Below, in pieces: positions 37,279-45,538 of a stretch of DNA of 48,816 bases. This DNA is from a virus, in IMG/VR virus record IMGVR_UViG_3300027917_000023; one strand, written 5' to 3'. Positions within the stretch are counted from its first letter, which is position 1, and every line of letters starts with the position of its first letter. The notes under the pieces are model-generated. The model ran no database searches and had not been told where the DNA came from. It was given only the letters and a program-made list of their open reading frames with translations. The translations under genes and the position numbers were made by a program.

Positions 37279-37377
37279 ATGTCAAGGAGAGCAAAGAAGG
37301 AGGAGAGGAACAGGCGTCGTAAGATGCAGAAGAAGGAAGAGGATGCTAAGAGGAAAGAGAAGAAAGCTAAAGACTGA
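37279..37377 (+). CDS. Tiny highly charged peptide (32 aa, MSRRAKKEERNRRRKMQKKEEDAKRKEKKAKD)
   Basis: Perfect SD aaaggaggtg 8 nt upstream of the ATG, wedged between two tRNAs. Confidence 0.25.
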   Translation: MSRRAKKEERNRRRKMQKKEEDAKRKEKKAKD

Positions 37378-37624: not shown

Positions 37625-37758
37625 CGCTCTTGAGTGAGCGAGTTCTTTGACAATTATGGCCGTGGGTGCGCTTGCGGCAACGGGCCAAACGCGGCATGCG
37701 TGTCGTAGGCTCTGAAAGTAAGCATCCGGGCTAGGAGCAATCCTAGCCCTTATGGGGA

Positions 37759-37791
37759 CGGGCCGGGTAACTCCCGGCCCTCCCCTCCTTT
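37759..37791 (+). terminator. GC-rich hairpin (gggccggg-taact-cccggccc) followed by a C/T-rich tract; weak terminator candidate
   Basis: 8-bp GC stem, but the T-run does not start until 8 nt after the stem. A second hairpin gggctagg-agcaat-cctagccc lies at 37727-37748. Confidence 0.25.
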
Positions 37792-37817
37792 TACCTCCAA
37801 TAGATATTATCAAAGCT

Positions 37818-37893
37818 GGGGCAGTGGTGTAGTGGCTAACACACTGGCCTGTCAAGCCAGAGATCGCGGGTTCAAGTCCCGTCTGTCCCGCCA
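37818..37893 (+). tRNA. tRNA-Asp (anticodon GTC)
   Basis: Acceptor ggggcag/ctgtccc. Anticodon arm ctggc-ctgtcaa-gccag. T arm gcggg-ttcaagt-cccgt. 3' GCCA. Confidence 0.85.
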
Positions 37894-38346
37894 GGCCCAG
37901 AGATTTGGGTTCAAATCCCATGACCAGCAGGATGAGTAAGCCTGTTGTGATAGCTTAATCTGGTAAAGTGCTGGGCGTGATTACGAAGCCAGAAAATACT
38001 GGCACAATATAGAGAGAAACCGGAAGCGGGGGTTCGAATCCCTCCCATCGCAGGATGAATAAACCTGTTCGGGTGGCCTAGTCATGAGTTGGCTTGCAGA
38101 ATGAATAACTCTGCTTGGGGCTATACCTGGTGGTAGTTTAGCGGCAGAACGCCGGTTCGAAAATGAAGCCAGAGGCGCGGGTTCGATTCCCGCCTCCCCC
38201 CTCATCTAGAGGGCTAGGATGAGTAAGCCTACGCAGCGGGGAGTAGCTCAGTGGTAGAGCACTGGCTAAAAGAAAAGCCAGAGATAACCCCTGGGCAAGC
38301 AGTGGGATGAGTAAGCCCACTCAGGTAGGATTAACTCTGGCATTAA
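37894..38346 (+). repeat. Array of degenerate tRNA-like units (5' and 3' half-like pieces related to tRNA-Asp/Arg) separated by a conserved 13-nt motif GGATGAGTAAGCC (4 copies)
   Basis: Motif at 37930-37942, 38053-38065 (ggatgaataaacc), 38217-38229 and 38305-38317. Each is preceded by variable/T-arm/acceptor-3'-like sequence and followed by acceptor-5'/D-arm-like sequence (e.g. 38231-38262 cggggag-ta-gctc-agtggta-gagc-a-ctggc). No unit folds into a complete cloverleaf. Confidence 0.5.
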
Positions 38347-38421
38347 TCCGGCGTGGCCTAACGGAAAGGCGGCGAGCTGTTAACTCGTAAGATGGTGGTT
38401 CAACTCCACCCGCCGGAGCCA
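38347..38421 (+). tRNA. tRNA-Asn (anticodon GTT)
   Basis: Acceptor tccggcg/cgccgga (U1-A72). D arm gcct-aacggaa-aggc. Anticodon arm gcgag-ctgttaa-ctcgt. T arm ggtgg-ttcaact-ccacc. 3' GCCA. Confidence 0.75.
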
Positions 38422-38439
38422 ACCAGCGTGGTCCTCTAC

Positions 38440-38545
38440 AAGAATTTCAGACGTTCTCTTTGGGAGGTTGCAGGTTCGAGTCCTGTCCCCCGGATCATCC
38501 GGGGGTAGCTCAATTTGGTAGAGCGCTAGTCATTTTATTCTTGTT
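38440..38545 (+). other. tRNA 3'-half (T arm + acceptor 3' strand) joined through a 3-nt loop to a tRNA 5'-half (acceptor 5' strand + D arm): candidate circularly permuted tRNA or decayed tandem duplicate
   Basis: gcagg-ttcgagt-cctgt then cccccgga (38487-94), tca, tccggggg (38498-505), then ta-gctc-aatttggta-gagc-g-ctagt. The 8-bp acceptor complement forms a hairpin across the junction. Confidence 0.4.
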
Positions 38546-38646
38546 CAATGACCCGCATTTTTAATAATTTTTCATCGGGCTCCGCGCCGGACTTAGTCTC
38601 CATAAGTATTTTAATCATAGAATTACGTTAAGGACAAAAGAGGTGT

Positions 38647-40292: not shown

Positions 40293-40358
40293 GAGATGAG
40301 GTCTTCACACTTACAATCCTTCTACGTGACCTACATGGATATTATAGAATACATTTAT

Positions 40359-40802: not shown

Positions 40803-40848
40803 CGAGTTTTGCAGACTCGCGTGGAAAGTTCGATTCCTTCAACTCTCA
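40803..40848 (+). pseudogene. tRNA 3'-part-like fragment (Ala-type anticodon arm cgagt-tttgcag-actcg + T arm) lacking a 5' acceptor
   Basis: Anticodon-arm and ttcgatt T-loop features are present, but there is no pairing 5' strand. Confidence 0.3.
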
Positions 40849-40852
40849 TAAA

Positions 40853-40926
40853 TGCCCCGTAGTGTAATGGAAGCACGAGCGGCTTTGACCCGCTTAGCGA
40901 AAGTTCGAACCTTTCCGGGGCAACCA
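40853..40926 (+). tRNA. tRNA-Gln (anticodon TTG)
   Basis: Acceptor tgccccg/cggggca. Anticodon arm agcgg-ctttgac-ccgct. T arm gaaag-ttcgaac-ctttc. 3' ACCA. Confidence 0.8.
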
Positions 40927-41115
40927 GATCACCCGAGCCACCGCTGGAAACAGAGGAAGGTCAGGACACCACTGCTTAAGGTGGGAGGGAATTTTCCCGC
41001 TTACCACCAAGGGTGCAATCTCAAGCAGGCTGAGAGTGTGAGCAGCTCTACGAAAGCCGGGTAGAGAGCAAAGATTAATGGTGGCATAGAACAGAATCCT
41101 GCCTACTGGGTGATC
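40927..41115 (+). ncRNA. Structured non-coding element (~190 nt) closed by an 8-bp helix
   Basis: gatcaccc (40927-34) pairs with gggtgatc (41108-15). Internal helices ggtgg/ccacc and gctctac/gtagagc. Contains ggaaggtcagg. Starts at the base after tRNA-Gln. Confidence 0.3.
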
Positions 41116-41175
41116 TTTGATATTAAAGTATTTTATTACTCGTTTATATGATTCACATCAAAACCTGATAACTAT

Positions 41176-41326
41176 GGGGAAGTAGCTCAACAGGATAGAG
41201 TTAGTATGGCGGACCTACATCTTGTAGTCCTATCTATCGGCTAGTGCAGATAGGCAACGCCAGATGGACGGACCGTCAGAATACCCCGTATGGGTGACGT
41301 GGGTTCGAGTCCCACCTTCTCCACCA
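41176..41326 (+). tRNA. tRNA-like element (151 nt) with canonical acceptor stem (G3:U70), D arm, T arm and ACCA end, plus a ~75-nt internal insertion in place of or within the anticodon region
   Basis: 5' ggggaag-ta-gctc-aacaggata-gagt. 3' gtggg-ttcgagt-cccac-cttctcc-a-cca. The 7-bp acceptor includes G3:U70. The insertion forms hairpins ggacctac/gtagtcc and cctatct/agatagg. A possible class-II-like variable hairpin ccc-gtat-ggg is present. Confidence 0.35.
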
Positions 41327-45465: not shown

Positions 45466-45538
45466 AGGTCAGAGATCCGGGTTCAAATCCCGGCGGTACC
45501 GGCCATACTGTAGCTTAACTTGGTAGAGCGCTGGCCAC
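45466..45538 (+). pseudogene. tRNA fragments: 3'-half-like (gtcagagat-ccggg-ttcaaat-cccgg-cggtacc) followed by a 5'-fragment gtagcttaacttggtagagcgctggcc
   Basis: The 5' fragment is near-identical to 38506-38532. The 3'-half resembles the fragment following tRNA-Asp at 37894-37930. Confidence 0.3.

What the first reader, a model, noticed from the sequence alone, without database searches (positions are those of the whole stretch)
37894..38346. Degenerate tRNA-like repeat units punctuated by a conserved 13-nt motif GGATGAGTAAGCC (4 copies)
The motif recurs at 37930, 38053, 38217 and 38305, at 123/164/88-nt spacing. Left of each copy is sequence resembling a tRNA 3' part (variable region, agagat, T arm, acceptor 3' strand). 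Right of each copy is sequence resembling a tRNA 5' part (acceptor 5' strand and D arm, e.g. cggggag-ta-gctc-agtggta-gagc). Unit 3 has an Asp-like 5' portion with an oversized 8-10-nt anticodon loop and no T arm. None folds into a standard cloverleaf. This could be decayed tandem tRNA duplications with a conserved spacer or processing signal, or an unusual split or permuted tRNA organisation whose motif marks processing or ligation sites.
Basis: seen in the sequence. Interest (0 to 1): 0.65.

Follow-up and report, generated by a model that had tools for sequence, protein, structure and literature searches.

The report
Phage array of permuted tRNA mimics
The "broken tRNA" repeats are a tandem set of tRNA-shaped non-coding RNAs of the known Y-RNA-like (YrlA) kind, with a closed acceptor arm and no anticodon loop, that are unusual because each carries the same conserved 9-base hairpin loop at the tip of that arm.

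Summary
GGATGAGTAAGCC occurs three times exactly and once with two mismatches, at the stated positions, all on the + strand. I found a fifth, degenerate copy whose loop starts at 38101.

The motif is a hairpin. Variable, mutually complementary stems of 4-7 bp close a conserved 9-nt loop, AUGARUAAN.

The flanking tRNA pieces are not wreckage. They assemble into circularly permuted tRNA-like modules. Each has a closing stem, a T arm, an acceptor-like stem closed by a loop, and a D arm. This is the architecture described for bacterial YrlA (Y RNA-like) RNAs.

- U1, U2 and U3 are complete modules.
- U4 is a rod without T and D arms.
- Two further modules lack the motif: Y (38437-38548) and U5 (45467-45536).

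U1 is 94% identical in a related metagenomic contig, against 70% for the adjacent tRNA-Asp, and shows a compensatory change in its closing stem. U5 and Y have syntenic orthologues with compensatory changes.

Similar modules are common in tRNA arrays of other large phages. None carries this loop.

No Ro60/TROVE gene, Ro60-binding stem or GNCGAA motif was found here, so membership of the Y RNA family is unproven. The function is inferred: a tRNA mimic that displays five copies of a ligand-binding loop.

Verdict: a new variant of a known kind, of moderate interest.

The parts
37818..37893 (+). tRNA-Asp (GUC), the 5' neighbour. One nucleotide separates its encoded CCA from U1.
   Evidence: ARAGORN. 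Rfam tRNA 71.1 bits.
37895..37976 (+). U1, a permuted tRNA-like module. Closing stem GCCCAG/CUGGGC; V region AGAU; T arm UUGGG-UUCAAAU-CCCAU; acceptor-like helix capped by motif copy 1; UA; D arm GCUU-AAUCUGGUA-AAGU.
   Evidence: Element map and pair counts: closing 6/6, D 4/4, Levitt A15-U48. The MFE fold reproduces this structure. Model R1 gives 41.2 bits. It is 77/82 identical in L132, with a compensatory closing-stem change.
37925..37947 (+). Motif hairpin 1: CAGCAGG / loop AUGAGUAAG (37932-37940) / CCUGUUG.
37988..38003 (+). Linker hairpin GCCAG-AAAAUA-CUGGC between U1 and U2.
   Evidence: Compensatory change to GUCAG-GACA-CUGAC in L132.
38019..38156 (+). U2, a permuted tRNA-like module. 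Closing stem ACCGG/CCGGU; T arm GGGGG-UUCGAAU-CCCUC; acceptor-like stem CCAUCGC/CUGGUGG; D arm GUUU-AGCGGCA-GAAC. A 75-nt insert (38052-38126) at the acceptor tip holds motif copies 2 and 5. The boundaries are less certain than for U1 and U3.
   Evidence: closing 5/5, T 5/5, AS 6/7, D 4/4, Levitt G15-C48. Model R1 sees only the T arm, because of the long insert.
38050..38068 (+). Motif hairpin 2: GCAGG / AUGAAUAAA / CCUGU.
38096..38114 (+).
38167..38267 (+). U3, a permuted tRNA-like module. Closing stem AGCCAG/CUGGCU; T arm GCGGG-UUCGAUU-CCCGC; acceptor-like stem CUCCCC/GGGGAG; D arm GCUC-AGUGGUA-GAGC. A 36-nt insert at the tip forms two hairpins, one of which is motif copy 3.
   Evidence: Rfam YrlA 33.5 bits, E 2e-5. 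Model R1 gives 46.0 bits. Pair counts. The MFE fold equals the proposed fold.
38215..38231 (+). Motif hairpin 3: UAGG / AUGAGUAAG / CCUA.
38277..38341 (+). U4, a rod-shaped module. Closing stem GCCAGAG/CUCUGGC, then an irregular long helix capped by motif copy 4. It has no T or D arm.
   Evidence: MFE -25.6 kcal/mol, z = -3.18. Coordinates checked.
38301..38321 (+). Motif hairpin 4: AGUGGG / AUGAGUAAG / CCCACU.
38347..38421 (+). tRNA-Asn (GUU), the 3' neighbour. It starts 5 nt after U4.
38437..38548 (+). Y, a full YrlA-like RNA without the motif. Terminal stem ACAAGAAU/AUUCUUGU, V stem-loop, T arm, 8-bp closed acceptor-like stem with loop UCA, D arm.
   Evidence: Rfam YrlA 44.5 bits, E 1e-8, model positions 1-114. 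Model R1 gives 65.1 bits. z = -3.13. An orthologue lies directly after tRNA-Asp in L223, with compensatory changes.
45467..45536 (+). U5, a compact permuted tRNA-like module without the motif, between tRNA-Gly(GCC) and tRNA-Ile(GAU).
   Evidence: Model R1 gives 46.8 bits. Pair counts. A syntenic orthologue in L223 (149-218) has three compensatory pairs.

Best explanation
The segment 37894-38346 encodes a tandem array of tRNA-shaped non-coding RNAs. Their topology is that of YrlA (Y RNA-like) RNAs, that is, circularly permuted tRNAs.

**Module architecture.** Each complete module (U1, U2, U3) starts with the 3' strand of an anticodon-stem-like helix. It continues through a 4-nt variable region and a T arm. 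Next comes an acceptor-like helix that is closed rather than open. A U8-A9 dinucleotide and a D arm follow. The module ends with the 5' strand of the same anticodon-stem-like helix. There is no anticodon loop and no free CCA end, so these RNAs cannot decode or be charged.

**The motif.** The 13-mer is the tip of the acceptor-like arm. It is a hairpin whose stem sequence is free to vary and whose 9-nt loop AUGARUAAN is fixed. Five such loops are displayed: one on U1, two on U2, one on U3, and one on the T/D-less rod U4.

**Inferred mechanism.**
1. The array is co-transcribed with the surrounding + strand tRNA genes.
2. It is released when tRNA-Asp (1 nt upstream) and tRNA-Asn (5 nt downstream) are matured.
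3. Each module folds into an L-shaped tRNA mimic that can engage factors recognising the tRNA elbow.
4. The repeated loop binds a second, specific partner, either protein or RNA.
5. The array therefore works as a multivalent tether or decoy, in the way Y RNAs couple a Ro60-binding module to an effector-binding module.

**Shown versus inferred.**
- Shown: the motif, its hairpin context, the permuted fold, its conservation and compensatory evolution, and its kinship with YrlA-like RNAs of other phages.
- Inferred: transcription, processing, the partner and the biological role.
For: **Motif**
- Three exact copies against none in 100 shuffles.
- Five loops are closed by 4-7 bp stems of unrelated sequence, while four other ATGARTAA octamers in the window have no such closure.
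- Module cores are 57-68% identical, yet the loop differs only at positions 5 (G/A) and 9.

**Fold**
- Rfam YrlA hits at 38176-38260 (33.5 bits) and 38437-38548 (44.5 bits, full model).
- Scripted element map: closing stems 5/5 to 6/6, T stems 4/5 to 5/5, D stems 4/4.
- The Levitt 15-48 pair covaries: A-U in U1 and U5, G-C in U2 and U3.
- Isolated U1 and U3 give the proposed fold as their MFE structure.

**Selection**
- U1 is 77/82 identical in L132, against 70.5% for tRNA-Asp and 70% for the linker. Two of the five differences form one compensatory pair, and two lie in the T and D loops.
- U5 and Y have syntenic orthologues in L223 with compensatory changes in the T, acceptor-like and terminal stems.

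**Family**
- Twelve IMG/VR phage loci carry the same architecture: 92.4% of cells paired, 16 of 21 pairs with changes on both sides, and 0 of 500 shuffles reaching the observed value.
- Some of these loci lie next to TROVE-domain genes.
- Many lie inside large tRNA arrays, often with 2-3 units per array.
- A model built from them scores Y 65.1, U5 46.8, U3 46.0 and U1 41.2 bits.

**Literature**
- YrlA RNAs have T, D and closed acceptor-stem elements and a covarying Levitt pair, and were reported in 22 phages (PMC4201824).
- They are described as resembling circularly permuted tRNAs (10.1101/312249).
Against: - No Ro60/TROVE-like gene lies in the window or the 4 kb beyond it.
- U1-U5 have only a 5-7 bp closing stem, not a long Ro60-binding stem, and the GNCGAAN0-1G motif is absent.
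- All Rfam YrlA scores are below the gathering score of 69.
- Covariance-model scores alone do not separate the units from junctions of ordinary tandem tRNAs. The Pro-Pro junction scores 39.5 bits and the Gly-His junction 36.4 bits.
- U1's acceptor-like stem has three non-canonical pairs next to the T stem, and the one substitution there in L132 breaks an A-U pair.
- U2's boundaries rest on one sequence only.
- U4 lacks T and D arms.
- The motif-bearing units are absent from the closest relatives found apart from L132, so they are dispensable for the clade.
- No expression data exist, and no partner for the loop has been identified.
Confidence: 0.7

Rival explanations
1. Decayed tandem duplications of a tRNA gene (pseudogenes). 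Repeated (tRNA + spacer) units lost their anticodon regions, and the motif is simply the inherited spacer.
For: - The closing stem plus V region (GCCAG-AGAU) matches the 3' anticodon-stem side of the adjacent tRNA-Asp.
- U4 has lost its T and D arms, and U2 carries an internal partial duplication with a degenerate D-like hairpin.
- The complementarity of the two halves is also what tandem copies of one tRNA would show by descent.
- The units are missing from several relatives.
Against: - U1 is far better conserved than the functional tRNA next to it (94% against 70%), and it shows a compensatory closing-stem change.
- The stems flanking the loop have diverged completely while staying complementary, yet the loop is fixed.
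- The Levitt pair covaries.
- Motif-less paralogues U5 and Y are conserved with compensation in L223.
- The same architecture is under clear covariation in unrelated phages.
Confidence: 0.1
2. Bona fide Y RNAs. The modules bind a Ro60/Rsr orthologue, encoded elsewhere in the 261-kb phage genome or by the host, and tether it to an effector as in the Ro60-Y RNA-PNPase complex.
For: - Rfam's YrlA model is the best-matching family for U3 and Y.
- Structurally equivalent units in other phages lie beside TROVE-domain genes (L177, L174, L152) or DUF2828+VWA genes (L187, L178).
- Some jumbo phages encode a TROVE protein with a tRNA-like partner (PMC7824862).
Against: - No TROVE-like gene lies within about 37 kb upstream or 15 kb downstream of the array.
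- U1-U5 lack a long terminal stem, and GNCGAAN0-1G is absent.
- Scores are below the Rfam gathering threshold.
- YrlA-like units in the large phage tRNA arrays L175, L179, L161 and L192 also have no TROVE gene in the fetched flanks.
Confidence: 0.2
3. True split, permuted or intron-containing tRNA genes. RNase P and 3' processing cut at the motif, and the pieces are joined or reassociate into decoding tRNAs. One example would be the Rfam 'tRNA' at 37944-38052 with a 45-nt insert.
For: - The Rfam tRNA model scores 30.2 bits, just above its gathering score of 29, for 37944-38052, and 29.0 bits for 38133-38194.
- M. smegmatis YrlA, which has a 7-bp acceptor stem, is cut by RNase P and receives CCA (PMC4201824).
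Against: - In the linear reading the acceptor stems pair only 5/7 and 4/7, the 'anticodon loops' are 10-45 nt long, and the third unit has no T arm.
- ARAGORN calls nothing in the segment.
- L132 keeps U1 but has no downstream 3' half, so the linear reading is not conserved.
- There are no anticodon-loop nucleotides at the module ends and no CCA.
- The nucleotides 5' of the acceptor 5' strand are base-paired, which disfavours RNase P cleavage (established knowledge, not tested here).
Confidence: 0.03
4. A DNA-level repeat, such as a protein-binding, recombination or homing-endonuclease site, that happens to lie between tRNA fragments.
For: - An exact 13-bp repeat occurs three times.
- LAGLIDADG-like ORFs occur in the tRNA clusters of relatives (L132; L213), so the region is recombinationally active.
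Against: - All copies are on one strand.
- Each copy is flanked by a different inverted repeat, which is a constraint at the level of RNA hairpins.
- In copy 5 the GG/CC closing pairs are replaced by GA/UC, which keeps the pairing but not the DNA sequence.
- No promoter or terminator signal is associated with the copies.
Confidence: 0.04

Closest known systems
YrlA / bacterial Y RNA-like RNAs (Rfam RF02553; Chen et al. 2014, PMC4201824; Wang et al. 2018, 10.1101/312249)
   Same: - The order of elements is the same: stem, V region, T arm, closed acceptor-like stem-loop, UA, D arm, stem.
- T-loop and D-loop sequences are conserved.
- The Levitt 15-48 pair covaries.
[quoted passage not shown] - Such RNAs occur in phages, and several copies can occur per locus.
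   Different: - There is no Ro60/TROVE gene nearby.
- U1-U5 have no long Ro60-binding stem and no GNCGAAN0-1G motif.
- Scores are below the Rfam gathering threshold.
- Four modules lie head to tail between two tRNAs.
- The acceptor-like tip carries a conserved 9-nt loop, repeated five times, that was not seen in any other YrlA-like RNA examined.
YrlA-like units in tRNA arrays of other large phages
   Same: - They share the same permuted tRNA-like core.
- They are embedded among tRNA genes on the same strand.
- There are often 2-3 per array.
- They also fall below the Rfam threshold.
   Different: - Most have long terminal stems and U-rich 3' ends.
- Their acceptor-tip loops are short and unrelated in sequence.
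- None is in a direct tandem array of four.
Circularly permuted tRNA genes of Cyanidioschyzon merolae and other algae (own knowledge: Soma et al. 2007)
   Same: The 3' half lies upstream of the 5' half, and the acceptor strands are joined by an intervening sequence.
   Different: - Those genes mature through a circular intermediate made at a bulge-helix-bulge junction in the anticodon region.
- They end up as normal tRNAs with an anticodon loop and CCA.
- Here no anticodon-loop nucleotides, bulge-helix-bulge motif or CCA exist.
- Bacteria and their phages lack that splicing endonuclease.
tmRNA, including two-piece tmRNA from permuted genes
   Same: It is a tRNA-like domain built from a T arm and an acceptor stem, in a non-tRNA molecule. 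Permuted gene order exists in some lineages.
   Different: - tmRNA has an open, chargeable acceptor end and a tag reading frame.
- Only weak partial Rfam hits, caused by the T arm, are seen here (14.8 bits for tmRNA_permuted).
Phage boxB hairpins read by arginine-rich N peptides (a resemblance of the loop only; PMC12550061)
   Same: If U2 pairs with A8, the loop reduces to G-A-R-U-A, a GNR(N)A pentaloop closed by a U-A pair. The only variation inside it is purine for purine.
   Different: - This is a reading of the sequence, not a tested fold.
- No nut-site context or boxA is present.
- The Arg/Lys-rich small ORF nearby is also conserved in a relative that has no such hairpins.

Membership tests
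YrlA (Y RNA-like, RF02553) | T arm with a tRNA-type T loop, followed by a closed acceptor-like stem-loop, then a D arm with GG in its loop. | tested here: met
   U1, U2, U3, U5 and Y all show this. U4 does not.
YrlA (Y RNA-like, RF02553) | The 5' and 3' flanks pair to form the helix that stands in for the anticodon stem. | tested here: met
   All 36 closing-stem cells are paired across six sequences, with several pair types. There is a compensatory change between the window and L132.
YrlA (Y RNA-like, RF02553) | tRNA-type tertiary pairs, notably a covarying Levitt 15-48 pair. | tested here: met
   A15-U48 in U1 and U5; G15-C48 in U2 and U3.
YrlA (Y RNA-like, RF02553) | A long terminal stem carrying the Ro60-binding site, with GNCGAAN0-1G on the 5' strand. 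| tested here: not met
   The motif is absent from 37800-38600. U1-U5 have only 5-7 bp closing stems. Y has an 8-bp terminal stem but not the motif.
YrlA (Y RNA-like, RF02553) | Encoded within about 4 kb of a Ro60/TROVE gene, on the same strand. | tested here: not met
   Pfam found no TROVE domain in the large ORFs. tblastn with three phage TROVE/DUF2828 proteins found nothing in the window or in L149. The rest of the 261-kb genome could not be read.
YrlA (Y RNA-like, RF02553) | Reaches the Rfam gathering score of 69 bits. | tested here: not met
   Scores are 44.5 (Y), 33.5 (U3) and 27.1 (U5). U1 and U2 are not reported.
YrlA (Y RNA-like, RF02553) | Bound by Ro60/Rsr, and modified by TruB and DusA. 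| not testable with these tools
   This needs immunoprecipitation and modification mapping.
Ordinary tRNA gene | A cloverleaf with a 7-bp open acceptor stem, a 7-nt anticodon loop and a T arm, in linear order. | tested here: not met
   ARAGORN finds none in 37894-38346. The Rfam hits of 30.2 and 29.0 bits need a 45-nt insert or are partial.
Circularly permuted tRNA gene (algal type) | The termini of the permuted precursor carry the two parts of an anticodon loop at a bulge-helix-bulge junction, and the mature product has CCA. | tested here: not met
   The module ends are flush closing stems. The sequences flanking them differ between units and include no shared loop. No CCA follows the acceptor 3' strands.
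Tandem-tRNA junction (a known false positive of YrlA models) | The T arm and the D arm each belong to a complete neighbouring tRNA. | tested here: not met
   True junctions (Pro-Pro and Gly-His) score 39.5 and 36.4 bits with model R1 and overlap ARAGORN tRNAs. The arms of U1, U3, U5 and Y belong to no tRNA.

The most novel reading that the evidence does not exclude
The array is a tRNA-scaffolded, multivalent RNA sponge or decoy. Stable L-shaped tRNA mimics serve as carriers that display five copies of one conserved loop, possibly a boxB-like GNR(N)A pentaloop closed by a U-A pair. The loops would capture a specific host or phage protein during infection, for example a defence nuclease, a translation factor or an RNA-processing factor. 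This would be a new functional class of phage-encoded RNA, derived from Y-RNA-like ancestors but independent of Ro60.
Probability: 0.2. Interest if true: 0.8.

Novelty: new variant of a known kind. Interest (0 to 1): 0.55.

Why it matters
**Annotation.** Sequence that looks like tRNA debris in a jumbo-phage tRNA cluster turns out to be a set of conserved structured RNAs. Equivalent units are widespread in tRNA arrays of large phages but fall below the Rfam YrlA threshold. They are therefore missed in routine annotation, or occasionally miscalled as tRNAs.

**Biology.** The role of the tRNA-like domain of Y RNAs is still unknown. An expanded family in a phage gives a tractable system for finding what such mimics bind. 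Here the modules have no Ro60-binding stem but carry a repeated, invariant loop on the acceptor tip. The phage also carries many tRNAs, a miniature RNase P-like RNA and a tmRNA-like RNA.

**Practical handle.** If the loop is a protein-binding site, it is a ready-made bait for a pull-down.

Tried and rejected
**Searches for the motif elsewhere**
- A T-loop-plus-motif pattern found 0 hits in IMG/VR.
- The same kind of pattern found 18 metagenome hits and 8 genome hits, of which only L132 is a true relative. The others are tRNA or tmRNA 3' ends followed by a chance match.
- The bare 13-mer in IMG/VR gave only scattered single chance hits.

**Searches for related loci**
- The PcfJ-like neighbour gene has no IMG/VR relatives. 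Its 50%-identical homologue lies on contigs that do not reach a tRNA cluster.
- The exact 76-aa downstream ORF is not on record.
- The upstream conserved element found nothing in IMG/VR.
- The ORF downstream of the unit in L132 led only to unrelated tRNA clusters.

**T4 stable RNAs**
- Neither rnaC nor rnaD gives a YrlA-like match.
- The UGAGUAAG in rnaD lies in a stem, so the resemblance is coincidental.

**Readings of the loop considered and dropped**
- CsrA-type GGA sites: the GG is paired, and it is replaced in copy 5.
- Hammerhead core: there is no CUGA.
- UAA/GAN internal loop: the two strands are adjacent and cannot fold back on each other.
- Short ORFs starting at the AUG: there is no usable Shine-Dalgarno spacing.
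- Pairing to another RNA of the cluster: only chance-level 6-mers were found.
- T4 gp43 operator loop AAUAACUC: this rests on memory only, matches copy 5 alone in a different structural register, and a literature search gave nothing useful.

**Other checks**
- The minus-strand ORFs across the array have no PHROG match.
- The promoter and terminator scan was at background level.
- Covariance-model score alone could not separate the units from tandem-tRNA junctions.
Full report
**1. The observation**

The 13-mer GGATGAGTAAGCC is present exactly at 37930, 38217 and 38305. No exact copy appeared in any of 100 dinucleotide-preserving shuffles of the window. A copy with two mismatches, GGATGAATAAACC, is at 38053.

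Reading the flanks shows that the conserved part is a hairpin loop. I scanned the whole window for ATGARTAA and asked how many base pairs close it. Five sites have 4-7 closing pairs, all between 37932 and 38315 on the + strand. The four other occurrences in the window have at most two. The fifth site has its loop at 38101 and was not in the finding.

The five hairpins are (coordinates checked):

| Copy | 5' stem | Loop | 3' stem |
|---|---|---|---|
| 1 | CAGCAGG | AUGAGUAAG | CCUGUUG |
| 2 | GCAGG | AUGAAUAAA | CCUGU |
| 5 | GCAGA | AUGAAUAAC | UCUGC |
| 3 | UAGG | AUGAGUAAG | CCUA |
| 4 | AGUGGG | AUGAGUAAG | CCCACU |

The stems share no sequence but stay complementary. The loop varies only at position 5 (G or A) and position 9.

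**2. What the tRNA-like pieces are**

ARAGORN finds 18 tRNAs in the window, none of them in 37894-38346. Rfam in E-value mode gave two hits to YrlA (Y RNA-like, RF02553):
- 38437-38548: 44.5 bits, E 1e-8, covering the whole model.
- 38176-38260: 33.5 bits, matching a T arm, a closed stem with a 37-nt insertion that holds the motif, and a D arm.

In YrlA RNAs a T arm is followed by an acceptor-like stem closed by a loop, and then by a D arm. The 5' and 3' flanks pair in place of the anticodon stem (PMC4201824).

A scripted element-by-element map gives three complete modules. "AS" is the acceptor-like stem.

| Module | Coordinates | Closing stem | T stem | AS | D stem | Levitt 15-48 |
|---|---|---|---|---|---|---|
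| U1 | 37895-37976 | 6/6 | 4/5 | see below | 4/4 | A-U |
| U2 | 38019-38156 | 5/5 | 5/5 | 6/7 | 4/4 | G-C |
| U3 | 38167-38267 | 6/6 | 5/5 | 6/7 | 4/4 | G-C |

- U1 has a continuous 7-bp capped helix. In strict tRNA register only 4 of its 7 acceptor-like pairs are canonical.
- U2 has a 75-nt insert at the acceptor tip that carries motif copies 2 and 5.
- U3 has a 36-nt insert forming two hairpins, one of which is motif copy 3.
- U4 (38277-38341) has a 7-bp closing stem and a long irregular helix capped by motif copy 4, but no T or D arm (z = -3.18).

Folded on their own, U1 and U3 give the proposed structure as their minimum-free-energy fold.

Two more modules without the motif exist:
- Y (38437-38548) has terminal stem, V, T, AS and D elements (z = -3.13).
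- U5 (45467-45536) is wedged between tRNA-Gly(GCC) and tRNA-Ile(GAU).

**3. Is the permuted reading better than the alternatives?**

In the linear tRNA reading:
- The acceptor stems pair only 5/7 and 4/7.
- The "anticodon loops" would be 10-45 nt long.
- The third unit has no T arm.
- The Rfam tRNA hits, at 30.2 and 29.0 bits, barely reach the threshold.

The decisive comparison is with L132, a 1441-bp metagenomic contig and the only true relative found by pattern scans. It carries tRNA-Asp, then one unit, then a hairpin, then a protein gene. It has no downstream 3' half, so the permuted unit is the conserved entity.

Identities between the window and L132:

| Segment | Identity |
|---|---|
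| U1 | 77/82 (93.9%) |
| Adjacent tRNA-Asp | 70.5% |
| Linker | 70% |

Of the five differences in U1:
- Two form a compensatory pair in the closing stem (GCCCAG/CUGGGC becomes GACCAG/CUGGUC).
- Two lie in the T and D loops.
- One breaks an A-U pair in the acceptor-like helix.

The hairpin after U1 also changes compensatorily, from GCCAG/CUGGC to GUCAG/CUGAC.

The module cores are only 57-68% identical to each other, yet the loop is fixed. The motif is therefore under its own constraint rather than inherited passively.

**4. Relatives of the phage**

The window comes from a 261,688-bp contig of an uncultured myovirus with T4-type neck, sheath and baseplate genes. Its sheath protein is less than 45% identical to that of any cultured phage.

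Homologues of its gp13-like protein led to syntenic tRNA clusters.

L223 (gp13 81% identical) has:
- An orthologue of U5 in the same Gly(GCC)/Ile(GAU) gap, with three compensatory pairs.
- An orthologue of Y directly after tRNA-Asp, with compensatory changes in the terminal, T and acceptor-like stems.
- A third unit.

None of these relatives has the AUGARUAAN hairpin. In L213 and L220, tRNA-Asp is followed directly by genes or by other tRNAs.

So Y and U5 are older members of the clade's RNA set. U1-U4 are an insertion and expansion between tRNA-Asp and Y. That expansion is seen as four units in this phage and as one unit in L132.

**5. The wider family**

An IMG/VR scan for a T loop followed within 17-47 nt by this D arm returned 58 loci, which split in two:
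- About 14 have 6-7 of 7 pairs between the two acceptor strands and short non-CCA loops.
- The rest have 2-4 pairs and ACCA or TCCA, and are ordinary tandem tRNAs.

Twelve of the first kind align cleanly:
- 92.4% of cells are paired.
- 16 of 21 pairs show changes on both sides.
- No shuffle out of 500 reached the observed values. The acceptor helix was part of the selection criterion; the closing and T helices were not.

Their genomic settings:
- Several lie in large tRNA arrays, for example L175 with 36 tRNAs and a tmRNA, and L179 with 20 tRNAs.
- Such arrays often hold 2-3 units.
- Some lie beside TROVE-domain genes (L177, L174, L152) or DUF2828+VWA genes (L187, L178).
- None reaches the Rfam gathering score.

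A model built from them (R1) scores the window units as follows:

| Target | Bits |
|---|---|
| Y | 65.1 |
| U5 | 46.8 |
| U3 | 46.0 |
| U1 | 41.2 |
| Pro-Pro tRNA junction (control) | 39.5 |
| Gly-His tRNA junction (control) | 36.4 |

Two real tandem-tRNA junctions therefore score nearly as high as U1. The score alone is not discriminating. Chen et al. warn of exactly this artefact. What separates the units is that their T and D arms belong to no complete tRNA, and that their closing and acceptor-like helices pair and covary.

**6. Membership**

Met:
- The structural definition of the YrlA tRNA-like domain.

Not met:
- There is no long Ro60-binding stem.
- The GNCGAAN0-1G motif is absent.
- No TROVE-like gene lies in the window or in the 4 kb beyond it.
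- Rfam scores are below the gathering threshold.

I therefore describe these RNAs as working like the tRNA-mimic domain of YrlA, and do not file them as Y RNAs.

**7. Mechanism**

Shown:
- A conserved, covarying, permuted tRNA-like fold, with a closed acceptor arm and no anticodon loop.
- Five copies of one loop at the acceptor tips.

Inferred:
- Co-transcription with the + strand tRNAs. No internal promoter or terminator stands out.
- Release by maturation of the flanking tRNAs, which are 1 nt and 5 nt away.
- Binding of factors that recognise the tRNA elbow through the body of the module.
- Binding of a second specific partner through the repeated loop, so that the array acts as a multivalent tether or decoy.

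One structural reading of the loop is an A1·N9 mismatch, a U2-A8 pair and a G-A-R-U-A pentaloop of the GNR(N)A type. That is the kind of hairpin arginine-rich N peptides recognise in boxB RNAs (PMC12550061). This reading is untested.

A 32-codon Arg/Lys-rich ORF with a strong ribosome-binding site lies in the same cluster at 37279-37377. It is conserved in L223. L223 lacks the hairpins, so a dedicated peptide-hairpin pair is not supported.

**8. Verdict**

The kind of RNA is already known: YrlA-type tRNA mimics, also reported in phages. The new elements are:
- The head-to-tail array inside a tRNA cluster.
- The absence of a Ro60 module.
- The invariant loop displayed five times on the acceptor tips.

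This is a new variant of a known kind. The function is unknown, but there is a clear experimental handle.

Noticed in passing
window 40925-41121 (+): A miniature RNase P RNA-like sequence starts directly after tRNA-Gln. Rfam RNaseP_bact_a gives 66.5 bits (gathering score 100), E 4e-19. The match spans model positions 1-367 in only 197 nt, with most of the specificity domain missing.
   Followed up: no
window 41176-41326 (+): A tmRNA-like sequence (Rfam tmRNA 31.7 bits, gathering score 47, E 4e-10) has a T arm and a 3' end reading ...CUCCACCA. ARAGORN does not call it.
   Followed up: no
window 37626-37801 (+): A GC-rich structured element of about 175 nt lies between tRNA-Arg and tRNA-Asp. It is 86% identical in L132, and a shortened copy precedes tRNA-Asp in L213. 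No Rfam family matches it.
   Followed up: partly
window 37279-37377 (+): A 32-codon ORF with a strong Shine-Dalgarno sequence lies between tRNA-Ala and tRNA-Trp. It encodes MSRRAKKEERNRRRKMQKKEEDAKRKEKKAKD. A syntenic homologue, 71% identical, is in L223 (2342-2250). It is probably a real small basic protein gene inside the tRNA cluster, and it was not called by the gene finder of the source record.
   Followed up: partly
IMG/VR loci L175, L179, L161, L192, L177, L174, L152, L187 and L178: Permuted tRNA-like (YrlA-like) RNAs are frequent in tRNA arrays of large phages, often 2-3 per array. All fall below the Rfam YrlA gathering score. Some lie next to TROVE-domain or DUF2828+VWA genes; others have none in the fetched flanks.
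   Followed up: partly
L223 1648-1757: ARAGORN calls a 78-nt 'tRNA-Ile(UAU)' that overlaps the orthologue of Y. YrlA-like RNAs can evidently be miscalled as tRNAs.
   Followed up: no
L132 223-858; L213 1076-1759: LAGLIDADG-type homing-endonuclease-like ORFs are inserted in the tRNA clusters of two relatives. This fits the high gene turnover seen in this region.
   Followed up: no
window 40293-40358 compared with L223 870-1025: In L223 a third permuted unit lies between ...gaggtcttc and caatccttctacgtga. The window keeps these two flanks but not the unit, which suggests a deletion there.
   Followed up: partly
window 40820-40852 (+): An orphan T-arm-like sequence (GGAAAGTTCGATTCCTTC) lies just upstream of tRNA-Gln(UUG) and belongs to no tRNA call.
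   Followed up: no
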